DNA of 63,737 bases, counting the filler, from Stramenopiles sp. TOSAG23-2 (taxonomy: Eukaryota), in assembly GCA_900128395.1 (NCBI GenBank). It is 19 parts of 19 records of this genome, joined end to end, with 100 filler letters (N's around TTAATTAATTAA, not from the genome) between each part and the next. Parts side by side here need not be neighbours in the genome. Positions count along the whole stretch, not along the records: positions 6,752 to 10,020 come from LT651283.1; 18 more parts are not named here. One strand, 5' to 3'. The notes beneath the pieces are model-generated. The model was not told the origin of the DNA and did not search any database. It saw nothing but the letters and a program-made list of their open reading frames with translations. Shown here one piece after another: positions 1,328-30,205 of the stretch. Positions within the stretch are counted from its first letter, which is position 1. Every line of letters starts with the position of its first letter. The position numbers and the translations under genes are program-made.

Positions 1328-1794
1328 TATCAGAGGAGAAGAGGCTTTGTTTTTTTTAAATTTACACAAATATTCATAATTCGGAAAGGGGGTATGTGGA
1401 TTGTACATACATTAATATTAATAGGAGGCCACACTGACTGCATATTTTCGTTTTCTAGTATCATATTACGCGTATATATGATATGATATCAAGCATGCCC
1501 AGCATGTATGATAGAAACGTAATTCGGTATGTACACTTTTATTAATAAAATGGTGTGTTTTTTTTAATTTCAGGAGATGCAGGGAGAGGAGAGAGAGATT
1601 TTTATCAAGGAGATTTTTATTATTTTATCTTATACTTCGTAAAAATTTTTATTTTTCCAACTTCTTGCTCAAATTTTTTTAGGAACACTTTGTACAAATT
1701 AAAATATATACCGAACGGTTCTCGTATCTTCGTACGAGCACCGGTATTTTTCAAAAAACTACGTATGCATGTACGTGTATTACGTATGTGCACA

Positions 1795-8267: not shown

Positions 8268-8348
8268 TGAAATATTTTACACTCTCTGTCGCATCTTGTA
8301 ATTTTTTAATTTTTTTTTAATTGCTAGATGGTCATTCAATATCAATCT
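8268..8348 (-). promoter_or_regulatory. SECIS element (selenocysteine insertion sequence) in the 3' UTR of the DsbA-like gene
   Basis: Minus strand reads AUGAC-CAUCUAGCAAUU-[A9 UU A4]-AAUUACAAGAUG-CGAC: AUGA/GA core (8335-8332 / 8290-8289), 12-position helix II with 10 Watson-Crick pairs, unpaired apical As; outer boundaries approximate. Confidence 0.8.
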
Positions 8349-8447
8349 CATATTTAATATAAAAACAATATTTTTTTAGTAAACACACATTATTTATAAT
8401 AATATATATAAATATATACATATCTACAGGTGGCAGGGGAAAGAAAA

Positions 8448-9455
8448 CTACATACTAAATCTCTGTACATCCATGTAAATTTGTTCAAATAAAGCTGCAA
8501 AATAGTCACTTGATCCACTGCCTTTGACAAGATATGGCTTTCGTTTCCCACTTGAACGGAATGGTAAACCAACTGCGTCAATTTTTGGAACATTAAATAC
8601 AAAAAGAGGTATCGAATGTATATTTTTCTCATAGATCGTACGTCCATACCATTCCCATACATAATCCTCTAATTCATTTGTATTTAAAAATGCATTTGCA
8701 TCTTCTACATTTAATCCAACTTTTTCAACAGCTTCTAGTAATGTATCTCGATAACTTGCACTTTTTTGTTCTTCAAAATGTTTTTTATTAATAAGTGTCA
8801 TATACTCTTCTTGCCGACCGTATCGTCCACACCAGAGCAATAATCTTTGACTTTCAATAGGTTGCCACTGTGCTGGTACATGAAAATTAAAATTAATATT
8901 TGCTTTTTTGCCTAATTCTTTCATACCAGCTTCCGCGCTTGCTCTTCGTTCCGCGCTACCAGTGTATCCTAATAATGCTTCATGCCATGTTGGCAATTTT
9001 TTCTTTTTCATTTTACAAGAACTGCCGCCGTTTTTTTTATTATCATTGTTACAACTACCGCTATTATATCCAATTAAACCACCTCTATCATATTCATCTT
9101 TCTTACTATCACCTATGAAAGAATATGGATACCTTGTTACATTAATCATCAAAACAACATTTTCATATTTCTTGTGAAATAGTTCCATCCCTTTCATAAT
9201 ATTATTTTTCCCTATGTATCCATGCGGTCATTGTGTACAAGTAACAAAATCACATTCTATACGAAGTTGTTTTAAATTATCATTATTATTATTTTTAATT
9301 TTATTTTGTACAATATTGTTACTTAATAAATTATCGACACCAGTATATAATAATAATTGATTCTTTTTACTTTCCGCCATCGTTGTTGGTATTATTGTTG
9401 CATATATTCCAATGATAATCAATAATAACGATACTATTGATGACGATAATTGCAT
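8448..9455 (-). CDS. DsbA/FrnE-like thioredoxin-fold selenoprotein with signal peptide (335 aa; TGA at 9228-9230 = Sec76)
   Basis: ORFs 9228..9470 and 8448..9197 share a frame, separated only by TGA in DFVTCTQ*PHGYIGK, which aligns to FrnE D-x-x-C-P-W-C-Y-I-G-K; downstream RYPY, QRLLLW and cis-Pro IHSIPLFVF; SECIS downstream. Confidence 0.88.
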
Positions 9456-26943: not shown

Positions 26944-29900
26944 GTTTTGTCTACAAAGTTTATTAAACAAAATAAACCTCGTATATTTAATTTATATACA
27001 TCATCGTTAAAAATAACATACAATGCACCTGATAGTACTACTATTAAAGGTACTATAGAGTTGAAAAACATCCGACATATTTATTTTGATACAGATAATA
27101 GATATGATAATATGGCCAGTTTAGGGAAAAGTGATCGTGCAAAAAAACGTTTGACAATTACTATTGATATATCATCTCGTAAATATAAATTGACTCCGGA
27201 TACAGAAAATGATATGAGATCATGGCTACGAACATTATTGAAAATAAATATGTTGCATAATAAAATTACTGAAAGAAAAGTATCCATGAGAGGATCTTTA
27301 AAATCAACATCTGGTTTAGAGTTAGAAAAATCCTTTGGCATACCACATTTATATGATAGAATATTATTATTAAATCGCAATGAAAAGCAAGGTGGTGATG
27401 CAGAGGATGAAAAAGAGAAACAAGAAAATGTCACAAACTTATTTGTACATATACATGATGTGACACATGATGATATGCCATTAAAATTTGATGTATCTGG
27501 TGATACAAGTATAAATAAAATGATACAAAATATCATTGATGAAATAAAACCAAAGGATAATGATGATGATGATGATGATAAGAAGAAGAAGGAAGGAGGA
27601 GGAGGAGGAAACACGAAACGCATTGATGAGTCATCCTCGTTTAATATTTCAAAGGAAGATTATGAAAATGTACGTTCTGAAGTGTTTCAAATTAAATTAT
27701 TACTAAAAGGAAAAAGGTATGATGATGACTTATCATCTGCTTGGAAAAGTGATGAATGGTTCGAAACAAGTGAATTCCATATACCAAAAATACGGCATTT
27801 GCAAATGTCTTTCCAAAGAAAAATTACACCATTAGCAAAATTAGTTTTACAAAAAAGAATTGGTGCAAAAGCTGTGGAAGCAGGTGGTATTTTTGTTGAA
27901 CTTGTCCCGTTGTATTTAGTTCCACAACTGCAAATTGACATTAAAATAAATTGTGTCCAATTACTACGAGATGATTCAACCAATAAACAGTTTGCGATGT
28001 ATAAGATCAATGTTCAAAATGGCGGATTGCGTTGGATTGTTTCCCATCGATTTAGCGAGTTTCACACATTTTATACAAATTTAGTTGAATTGTGGTCACA
28101 GCGTGCTGGATCCGTGTCACCAAGTATGAACAAGTCAAATGCGATGAAACCATTGCCATCTATACCATCTAAAACATTTTCCAAGACGCTTGATATACCA
28201 TTTCTTGATCTGCGCAGGAAAGAATTAGAAAAGTTTATCAAAGAATTATTAAAACATGAATGGGCATCGCAGCGTCCGGAAGTGTTATCGTTTTTAGGTT
28301 TTATGTCTGATCATTCGGATACTGGAATATTATCGAAACCAAAATCTATTCATATTAGTAAAATACAGGAAGTGGTCAATACTGGTGATATTGTATTGTT
28401 TAAATCCAAAAATTCATTAAGTGGGTTGCAACGCATTGCAACGGGTACAAATTGGGATCATATTGGGATCATATTGCAACGAACTGAAGCACTGTATGAT
28501 ATCATCGAAGCTACCGGAGATGGTGTCCAAATGTATCCATTAATAAATCGTTTAGAAGTGTACAATCAAACATTAATGTTTGATTGTACACTTCTAAACG
28601 ATTTATTAATGGATACATTTGGACACCATCTCCGGTAGCTTCGATGATATCATACAGTGCTTCAGTTCGTTGCAATATGATCCCAATATGATCCCAATTT
28701 GTACCCGTTGCAATGCGTTGCAACCCACTTAATGAATTTTTGGATTTAAACAATACAATATCACCAGTATTGACCACTTCCTGTATTTTACTAATATGAA
28801 TAGATTTTGGTTTCGATAATATTCCAGTATCCGAATGATCAGACATAAAACCTAAAAACGATAACACTTCCGGACGCTGCGATGCCCATTCATGTTTTAA
28901 TAATTCTTTGATAAACTTTTCTAATTCTTTCCTGCGCAGATCAAGAAATGGTATATCAAGCGTCTTGGAAAATGTTTTAGATGGTATAGATGGCAATGGT
29001 TTCATCGCATTTGACTTGTTCATACTTGGTGACACGGATCCAGCACGCTGTGACCACAATTCAACTAAATTTGTATAAAATGTGTGAAACTCGCTAAATC
29101 GATGGGAAACAATCCAACGCAATCCGCCATTTTGAACATTGATCTTATACATCGCAAACTGTTTATTGGTTGAATCATCTCGTAGTAATTGGACACAATT
29201 TATTTTAATGTCAATTTGCAGTTGTGGAACTAAATACAACGGGACAAGTTCAACAAAAATACCACCTGCTTCCACAGCTTTTGCACCAATTCTTTTTTGT
29301 AAAACTAATTTTGCTAATGGTGTAATTTTTCTTTGGAAAGACATTTGCAAATGCCGTATTTTTGGTATATGGAATTCACTTGTTTCGAACCATTCATCAC
29401 TTTTCCAAGCAGATGATAAGTCATCATCATACCTTTTTCCTTTTAGTAATAATTTAATTTGAAACACTTCAGAACGTACATTTTCATAATCTTCCTTTGA
29501 AATATTAAACGAGGATGACTCATCAATGCGTTTCGTGTTTCCTCCTCCTCCTCCTTCCTTCTTCTTCTTATCATCATCATCATCATCATTATCCTTTGGT
29601 TTTATTTCATCAATGATATTTTGTATCATTTTATTTATACTTGTATCACCAGATACATCAAATTTTAATGGCATATCATCATGTGTCACATCATGTATAT
29701 GTACAAATAAGTTTGTGACATTTTCTTGTTTCTCTTTTTCATCCTCTGCATCACCACCTTGCTTTTCATTGCGATTTAATAATAATATTCTATCATATAA
29801 ATGTGGTATGCCAAAGGATTTTTCTAACTCTAAACCAGATGTTGATTTTAAAGATCCTCTCATGGATACTTTTCTTTCAGTAATTTTATTATGCAACATA

Positions 29901-30205
29901 TTTATTTTCAATAATGTTCGTAGCCATGATCTCATATCATTTTCTGTATCCGGAGTCAATTTATATTTACGAGATGATATATCAATAGTAATTGTCAAAC
30001 GTTTTTTTGCACGATCACTTTTCCCTAAACTGGCCATATTATCATATCTATTATCTGTATCAAAATAAATATGTCGGATGTTTTTCAACTCTATAGTACC
30101 TTTAATAGTAGTACTATCAGGTGCATTGTATGTTATTTTTAACGATGATGTATATAAATTAAATATACGAGGTTTATTTTGTTTAATAAACTTTGTAGAC
30201 AAAAC
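26944..30205. repeat. Whole-contig perfect inverted duplication (palindrome, axis 28574/28575)
   Basis: Contig ends are reverse complements (GTTTTGTCTAC...GTAGACAAAAC); identical 563-aa ORF on both strands; centre CAAACATT|AATGTTTG has no loop. Confidence 0.97.
26947..28574 (+). CDS. PH + PX + permuted papain-like (YiiX/YebB, NlpC/P60) domain protein; partial at both ends, mirrored on the minus strand from 30202 to 28575
   Basis: PH (KGTIEL...RKYKL...MRSWLRTL); PX (HRFSEFHTFY...PSIPSK...RRKELEKFIKELL); TGDIVLF..WDHIGII..IIEATGDGV; sequence after the axis is artefactual. Confidence 0.8.

What the first reader, a model, noticed from the sequence alone, without database searches (positions are those of the whole stretch)
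8448..9455. Hidden secreted DsbA/FrnE-like selenoprotein split by the ORF caller at an in-frame UGA
Two same-frame ORFs join into one 335-aa protein with signal peptide and DsbA/FrnE fold if TGA 9228-9230 is read as selenocysteine. The TGA falls exactly at the nucleophilic Cys position of the FrnE CPWC motif, and a SECIS follows. TGA is an ordinary stop in other genes here, so this is site-specific recoding. DsbA-like selenoproteins are known from some marine algae and bacteria; a signal-peptide form implies Sec-based disulfide chemistry in the secretory pathway or an organelle.
Basis: partly seen in the sequence, partly recalled or inferred. Interest (0 to 1): 0.85.

Follow-up and report, generated by a model that had tools for sequence, protein, structure and literature searches.

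The report
Selenocysteine FrnE enzyme, shifted active site
A marine protist gene reads an internal "stop" codon as the rare amino acid selenocysteine to make a redox enzyme of an already known family, but in this branch the partner cysteine of the active site sits three residues before the selenocysteine instead of three after it.

Summary
Real selenoprotein gene, minus strand 9455-8448, 335 aa, UGA = residue 76. TGA stands at this column in 64 of 64 relatives that cover it (GC 29-72%) while neighbouring codons vary synonymously. RNA-library contigs keep it without a gap. The genome holds tRNA-Sec, SepSecS, SelD and eEFSec, and uses TGA as a normal stop elsewhere. The fold is FrnE (Z 22.6). 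Corrections: (1) the site is not U-P-W-C but C-T-Q-U-P-H-G. Sec is at FrnE's attacking Cys, the +3 resolving Cys is Gly (64/64), and a Cys replaces the conserved Asp at -3 (63/64). (2) The hydrophobic leader is real but confined to this lineage, and Met26 offers a leaderless start. (3) The SECIS is pattern-correct but weak, and covariance models miss it. Sec-DsbA/FrnE is known in algae, invertebrates and bacteria. I did not find this CxxU-PHG subfamily in print, but a key supplement was unreadable. This scan already noted a CxxU FrnE selenoprotein in another genome (e1-7366472). Verdict: new variant of a known kind; most likely a Cys73/Sec76 thiol-disulfide oxidoreductase.

The parts
8448..9455 (-). 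Coding sequence, 335 aa with UGA read as Sec, ends TAG; no intron needed
9381..9455 (-). Hydrophobic N-terminal leader (Met1-Thr25), signal-peptide-like, lineage-specific
   Evidence: hydropathy; kept in sister sequences P0197 and P0115; an RNA-library contig covers 9315-9467
9378..9380 (-). Met26, possible second start (ACAACG-ATG-G), 50 codons before Sec
   Evidence: 22 of 29 distinct relatives have a Met 30-56 codons before the UGA; P0115 has Ile here
9237..9239 (-). Cys73 (-3), at the column of FrnE Asp19; proposed partner of Sec
   Evidence: 63 of 64 loci; alignments
9228..9230 (-). In-frame UGA = Sec76, at the column of FrnE Cys22, just before helix 1
   Evidence: 64 of 64 loci TGA; model; Cys in P0046
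9219..9221 (-). Gly79, at the column of the FrnE resolving Cys25 (lost)
   Evidence: 64 of 64 loci
8991..9080 (-). Low-confidence loop with a lineage-specific insertion bearing Cys135 and Cys147
   Evidence: alignment; pLDDT 53-63 in these blocks; positions
8607..8618 (-). H-S-I-P loop; Pro283 aligns with the FrnE G-V-P proline (cis-Pro position; the cis form is inferred)
   Evidence: Pro invariant in 39 of 39 rows
8279..8342 (-). SECIS candidate: AUGAC at 8335-8331, helix II, AAAA loop, CGAC at 8291-8288, short helix I; 113 nt after the stop
   Evidence: a relative's contig rejoins at about 8319-8352 after an unrelated UTR stretch; not scored by covariance models

Best explanation
A eukaryotic selenoprotein of the DsbA family, FrnE-type fold, belonging to a distinct marine-protist subfamily with the site D-[FW]-V-T-C-[TS]-Q-U-P-H-G-[YF]-[IL]-G. 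Shown: the frame, the invariant UGA, the Sec machinery and the fold. Inferred (about 0.95): UGA is decoded as Sec through the 3'-UTR SECIS. Inferred (about 0.55): Sec76, at the start of helix 1, is the nucleophile that attacks a protein or small-molecule disulfide (or a peroxide). With the usual +3 Cys gone, Cys73 at -3 resolves the mixed intermediate to a Cys73-Sec76 selenenylsulfide, which the thioredoxin or glutathione system re-reduces. Flexible Cys-bearing arms (C-terminal tails in 14 of 38 relatives; perhaps the Cys135/Cys147 loop here) may relay electrons, as the tail of Deinococcus FrnE does. Location is a variable add-on: Met1 probably gives an ER-entering form here (about 0.55) and Met26 a cytosolic one.
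For: TGA in 64 of 64 loci covering the column, 45 distinct 45-nt contexts, synonymous variation at the flanking codons, no TAA or TAG there. Cys at the same column in an Aureoumbra homologue (C-A-I-C-P-Y-A) and in bacterial FrnE. Three tRNA-Sec genes with anticodon TCA, SepSecS, SelD, eEFSec, PSTK-like and SBP2-like genes; 6 of 6 GPx matches hold a TGA. RNA-library contigs of X8 and X18 carry TGA with all their differences accounted for elsewhere and no joint over it. SECIS-pattern hairpins in 18 of 46 orthologue UTRs against 1 of 46 reverse complements. Model pLDDT 89.8 with both Cys73 and Sec76 in the loop between strand 1 and helix 1. FrnE is the best fold. The -3 Cys is kept in 63 of 64 loci and in the Cys-form homologue.
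Against: No model coordinates were available, so the Cys73-Sec76 distance is untested. The sister family (D-x-x-U-P-N-G, L003) does without any partner Cys near Sec, so Cys73 need not be the resolving residue. The window's own SECIS is weak (-1.8 kcal/mol, below the -5 cut used for the relatives), has CGAC instead of the KGAW consensus (PMC3753652), and is missed by both covariance models. A looser version of my SECIS scan gave 18 against 8 of 46. Contigs from RNA libraries can be DNA. No activity or labelling data exist.
Confidence: 0.6

Rival explanations
1. Same selenoprotein, but a single-selenol, glutathione-dependent enzyme (deglutathionylase, peroxidase or kappa-GST/HCCA-isomerase-like catalyst); Cys73 only tunes or positions Sec.
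For: No +3 Cys in 64 of 64 loci. The sister UPNG family lacks both partner cysteines. Kappa GST (Z 15.6), HCCA isomerase (16.3) and GSH-bound DsbM (14.9) share the fold. A single-Sec bacterial DsbA (UxxV) is listed in PMC2398784 Table 2.
Against: Near-invariant Cys at CxxU spacing, kept even in the Cys-form homologue; FrnE scores clearly above the GST-like folds (22.6 against 16.5 or less for all non-FrnE/SCO1869 entries).
Confidence: 0.24
2. One reading: a dedicated secretory-pathway or secreted disulfide oxidase/isomerase working like periplasmic DsbA or PDI.
For: The hydrophobic leader stands out in the window and is kept in two sister sequences, one of which lacks Met26. U-P-H recalls the C-P-H-C of E. 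coli DsbA (recalled, not from a call).
Against: The leader is absent from 28 of 29 distinct relatives. There is no +3 Cys to hold a DsbA-type disulfide and no KDEL-like end. The closest fold is the cytoplasmic reductase FrnE.
Confidence: 0.1
3. Cys73, Sec76 and His78 form a soft-metal or metalloid binding site (Cd, Hg, Cu, As), and the protein is a sensor or chaperone rather than a catalyst.
For: Cys, Sec and His are all near-invariant; Deinococcus FrnE is cadmium-induced and protects against cadmium.
Against: The proline loop and helix-1 geometry of a redox enzyme are retained; there is no direct evidence of metal binding.
Confidence: 0.04
4. The TGA is a true stop, a sequencing error, a Trp codon, or is spliced out; the product is the 249-aa downstream ORF.
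For: Public callers give the 249-aa form; 12 in-frame GT..AG pairs span the codon; one database protein shows W at the column (P0159); the SECIS is weak.
Against: Invariant TGA across GC 29-72%; the upstream strand 1 is conserved and needed for the fold; contigs run through without a gap; TGA ends other genes, including eEFSec itself. The database also shows W for this genome's own TGA in L003 (P0228), so W can be a caller's reading.
Confidence: 0.02

Closest known systems
Sec-containing DsbA/FrnE selenoproteins of algae, Mamiellophyceae/Mesostigma, Ciona, amphioxus and other invertebrates (PMC7539508, PMC6627142, PMC2874816, PMC3473315, PMC3965025; passages read)
   Same: PF01323 domain, Sec at the first (attacking) Cys column, 3'-UTR SECIS, gene cut short by annotation
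   Different: The motif reported where I could read one is U/C-x-x-C (PMC2874816). Here +3 is Gly and -3 is Cys. The genome has separate canonical U-P-W-C paralogues (L004, L028) outside this clade. Whether the algal surveys lumped this subfamily under 'DsbA' could not be checked: the PMC7539508 supplement was unreadable.
Deinococcus radiodurans FrnE (PDB 5coh/5cnw; PMC8945050 section 2.4 read whole)
   Same: Best fold match (Z 22.6, 217 residues), same register of the site and proline loop; C-terminal Cys tails in part of the family
   Different: 16% identity; D-x-x-C-P-W-C against C-x-x-U-P-H-G; N-terminal extension and leader; no C-terminal CxxxxC in the window protein
Bacterial selenoprotein families DsbA 1, 2 (UxxC) and DsbA 3 (UxxV) of the GOS survey (PMC2398784, Table 2 passage)
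   Same: PF01323 with Sec; DsbA 3 also lacks the +3 Cys
   Different: Prokaryotic; no -3 Cys reported in the motif column
Rdx family (SelW, SelT, SelH, MIEN1) CxxU/CxxC site (PMC3527542 passages)
   Same: CxxU spacing in an exposed loop at the thioredoxin active-site position
   Different: Small fold without the DsbA helical insertion; no Rdx Pfam hit in any of 39 members. A resemblance of motif, not membership.

Membership tests
Eukaryotic selenoprotein | In-frame UGA conserved across relatives at a Cys column | tested here: met
   64 of 64 loci; Cys in P0046 and FrnE
Eukaryotic selenoprotein | Sec machinery in the genome | tested here: met
   tRNA-Sec, SepSecS, SelD over cut-off; eEFSec domains; PSTK below the TIGR cut-off and SBP2 by L7Ae plus recalled motifs, so both are candidates
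Eukaryotic selenoprotein | SECIS in the 3' UTR | tested here: inconclusive
   Pattern hit 8335-8289, 19 of 500 shuffles, 5' arm kept in a relative; Rfam and own model negative; Rfam SECIS_1 finds nothing in the whole genome
Eukaryotic selenoprotein | Sec in the expressed protein | not testable with these tools
   needs 75Se labelling or mass spectrometry
DsbA family (PF01323) | Thioredoxin fold with helical insertion; Pfam DSBA over cut-off | tested here: met
   33 bits against 25.6; 39 of 39 members match at E 0.01 (67); folds
FrnE subfamily (cd03024) | FrnE as closest fold and sequence profile | tested here: met
FrnE subfamily (cd03024) | C/U-P-[WF]-C dithiol motif | tested here: not met
   U-P-H-G; Gly at +3 in 64 of 64; definition from PMC8945050. 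Filed as FrnE-like, not as canonical FrnE.
FrnE subfamily (cd03024) | C-terminal CxxxxC (present in many, not all) | tested here: not met
   absent here; a Cys within the last 7 residues in 14 of 38 aligned family members
FrnE subfamily (cd03024) | Disulfide reductase/isomerase activity | not testable with these tools
   assay needed
Rdx (SelW-like) | Rdx domain PF10262 | tested here: not met
   no Rdx hit for the protein at E 1 or for 39 members at E 0.01 (67)
Kappa GST / HCCA isomerase | Catalytic Ser at this column and a glutathione site | tested here: inconclusive
   fold shared at lower Z; Sec, not Ser, at the column (the Ser is recalled); glutathione site not examined
Secretory-pathway protein | Cleavable signal peptide used in vivo | tested here: inconclusive
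   hydrophobic leader present; no signal-peptide predictor at hand; second Met available

The most novel reading that the evidence does not exclude
Within marine protists the FrnE active site was rebuilt in two steps: loss of the +3 resolving Cys (D-x-x-U-P-N-G family), then gain of a Cys at -3 (C-x-x-U-P-H-G family). This gives a SelW-like CxxU redox couple on a DsbA fold, with Sec attacking and the upstream Cys resolving. It is a widespread, almost exclusively Sec-dependent family, sent to different compartments by interchangeable leaders, that public protein sets hold only as fragments and that selenoprotein catalogues have not separated from canonical DsbA/FrnE.
Probability: 0.35. Interest if true: 0.62.

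Novelty: new variant of a known kind. Interest (0 to 1): 0.42.

Why it matters
It adds a widespread marine-plankton selenoprotein subfamily that databases truncate: in a motif scan of 172 protein hits only 4 carried the site motif internally and 2 ended exactly at it. One genome holds three natural versions of the same active site (U-P-W-C, U-P-N-G, C-x-x-U-P-H-G). That is a ready-made series for testing how a thioredoxin-fold selenoenzyme is resolved without the +3 Cys, and whether CxxU spacing arose more than once. The recoding itself and Sec in DsbA/FrnE are not new.

Tried and rejected
The plus-strand reading of the coordinates is full of stops. Rfam found no SECIS in the window or in the whole genome, so it is uninformative here. 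Plain folding of the UTR gave z-scores of -1.0 to +0.3: no unusual stability. R1 missed the window's hairpin and ranked coding stretches highly in held-out loci, so it is a weak, GC-biased model and settles nothing. NCBIfam and single-sequence PDB searches gave nothing. Genome-wide UGA reassignment was rejected (7 of 27 ORFs and eEFSec end in TGA). An intron over the codon was rejected (contigs continuous; it would delete invariant residues). The careful tree did not finish; only the quick tree is used. No look-alike by sequence among earlier scan findings. Literature searches found no paper with the motif strings or a CxxU DsbA; supplements of PMC6627142 and PMC5917014 held no motif; the PMC7539508 supplement could not be read. 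No language-model atlas comparison was obtained. Gene neighbours were not interpreted: the contig is only 3,269 bases and the window is pieces joined by N spacers.

Full report
Observation. On the minus strand 9455-8448 is one 335-aa frame with a single internal TGA at 9230-9228, residue 76; a table-11 caller keeps only the last 249 aa. The host is an AT-rich eukaryote (intron-poor genes such as an EF1B-gamma-like and a CTP-synthase-like ORF, names by eye); runs that hold the stretch are mostly labelled marine or seawater. I did not determine the lineage. The gene lies on a 3,269-base contig, converging on one neighbour with 265 bases between the stops.

The UGA is Sec. A profile of 23 proteins, whose two search patterns came from the C-terminal half, fetched 69 metagenome loci. 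Five do not cover the site. All other 64 have TGA there, over GC contents of 0.29-0.72 and 45 distinct 45-nt contexts with synonymous changes in the flanking codons. Several loci are near-duplicates and L034 is 98% identical, so 64 overstates independence. An Aureoumbra lagunensis homologue has Cys at the column (P0046/P0188). Database proteins mostly begin after the codon or end at it: 4 of 172 carry the motif internally and 2 end exactly there. The genome has three tRNA-Sec genes, SepSecS, an Ndh-fused SelD, eEFSec, PSTK-like and SBP2-like candidates (SBP2 motifs recalled), and 6 of 6 GPx matches contain a TGA. TGA is a normal stop in 7 of 27 other long ORFs. Of 24 listed runs I laid 4 RNA runs. 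The X8 contig 8432-9268 and the X18 contig 9098-9250 have all their differences listed elsewhere, so both read TGA. The X16 relative shows synonymous changes at Cys73, Pro77 and Gly79 and none listed at the TGA, but 3 of its 15 differences are not displayed. No joint spans the codon. These are contigs from RNA libraries and do not prove transcription.

Fold and active site. Pfam DSBA scores over its cut-off. The AlphaFold model from 39 sequences has pLDDT 89.8. Its best matches are Deinococcus FrnE (Z 22.6) and Streptomyces SCO1869 (20.5), then HCCA isomerase, YjbH, kappa GST and DsbM at 15-16.5. Profile alignments put Cys73 on FrnE Asp19, Sec76 on Cys22 and Gly79 on Cys25, without gaps. My regular expression asked for HG after the site; the tblastn check shows that no locus covering the site was lost by that. 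In the model both Cys73 and Sec76 lie in the loop between strand 1 and helix 1, the place where Rdx-family proteins carry their CxxC/CxxU (PMC3527542, passages). The proline that follows the helical insertion is invariant.

Paralogues and tree. The genome has canonical U-P-W-C genes (L004, L028), a D-T-M-U-P-N-G gene (L003) and a 5'-truncated member of the present clade (L002). In a quick maximum-likelihood tree of 53 selected rows (SH-aLRT only, careful search unfinished), the CxxU clade (97) and the UPNG family (99) join at 96, apart from the PWC proteins. This fits loss of the +3 Cys followed by gain of the -3 Cys, but branches are long, the root is by midpoint, and for most UPNG members the site itself is missing from the database proteins.

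SECIS. One pattern-correct hairpin lies 113 nt after the stop (8335-8289). It is one of 5 on both strands of the window; 19 of 500 shuffles and 1 of 27 control stretches give a hit. The AUGAC/CGAC core departs from UGAN/KGAW (PMC3753652, passages) but recurs behind a GPx of this genome (L018) and in relatives. Orthologue UTRs give hits in 18 of 46 against 1 of 46 reverse complements at -5 kcal/mol or better; a looser scan gave 18 against 8. The window's own hairpin (-1.8) would not pass that cut. A contig of a roughly 89% identical relative replaces 92 UTR bases by 37 unrelated ones and then rejoins for 34 bases over the 5' arm; another shows the same GAUG-CGAC 3' end with changes that keep pairing (single contigs, read by eye). 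Rfam and my own model do not score the hairpin. I rate it about 0.75 as the working SECIS.

Leader. Met1-Thr25 is the most hydrophobic start in the window (3.35 against at most 2.58 for 27 ORFs) and is kept in two sister sequences, one with Ile in place of Met26, which favours use of Met1. It has no basic n-region, and the protein has no KDEL-like end. Among 29 distinct relatives with the 5' end held, only L034 has such a leader, 22 have a Met 30-56 codons before the UGA, and 14 have two Mets, most with basic transit-peptide-like stretches between them. Targeting is therefore variable and possibly dual. It is not a family trait.

Mechanism. Best reading: Sec76 attacks a disulfide or peroxide, Cys73 resolves, and thioredoxin or glutathione recycles. 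Cys tails (14 of 38) or the Cys135/Cys147 loop may relay, as the FrnE tail does (PMC8945050 section 2.4, read whole). The chemistry is inferred; the main rival is a single-selenol, glutathione-dependent enzyme.

What is known. Sec-DsbA is listed among widely spread algal selenoproteins (PMC7539508, passages; supplement unreadable), in Mamiellophyceae and Mesostigma as FrnE (PMC6627142, passage and supplement search, 44, 75), in Ciona and amphioxus with U/C-x-x-C (PMC2874816, passages), in other invertebrates (PMC3473315, passages), in SelenoDB (PMC3965025, passages), and in marine bacteria as UxxC or UxxV (PMC2398784, passages). Searches found no description of a CxxU-PHG form; the library lacks most subscription papers (the Aureococcus and Emiliania selenoproteome papers were not seen), and figures and supplements may hold it. 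This scan already reported a CxxU DsbA/FrnE selenoprotein in another genome (e1-7366472), seen after my own analysis; it is not independent support.

Verdict. New variant of a known kind; interest 0.42.

Noticed in passing
L003 (G000:C1716:36-671, minus): A second non-canonical FrnE-like Sec gene, D-T-M-U-P-N-G: no partner Cys at +3 or -3. About 58 eukaryote-type database relatives, nearly all cut just after the site; sister to the CxxU clade (89).
   Followed up: partly
L004 (G000:C1824) and L028 (G000:C1415): Two canonical U-P-W-C FrnE selenoprotein genes; L004 has a SECIS-pattern hairpin with a long apical stem.
   Followed up: partly
L002 (G000:C1116:170-760, minus): 5'-truncated paralogue of the CxxU clade (42% identity); its site lies off the contig.
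   Followed up: partly
window 26947-30202: Perfect palindrome (1692 of 1692 bases) duplicating a PX-domain-like ORF; probably an amplification or assembly artefact.
   Followed up: partly
window, N runs about every 3.3 kb: The window is made of short contigs joined by N spacers with a TTAATTAATTAA linker, so neighbours across gaps are not shown to be adjacent.
   Followed up: yes
L103 (G000:C1626): SelD is fused behind a Pyr_redox_2 (Ndh-like) domain, a fusion described before (PMC2398784 passage).
   Followed up: partly
L116 (G000:C722): SBP2-like L7Ae protein that runs on into a methyltransferase-like C-terminal domain in one frame of over 1,000 codons (domain names by eye).
   Followed up: no
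L106 (G000:C610): The eEFSec frame itself ends in TGA.
   Followed up: no
L051, L060, L061, L065; P0029, P0040, P0055, P0068: Some family members carry an extra C-terminal domain with an L-x-x-K-x-E-L-N-G motif.
   Followed up: no
window 1483-1515 (+): A short SECIS-pattern hit behind the MFS-like ORF 56-1327, which has no UGA in its frame; probably chance.
   Followed up: no
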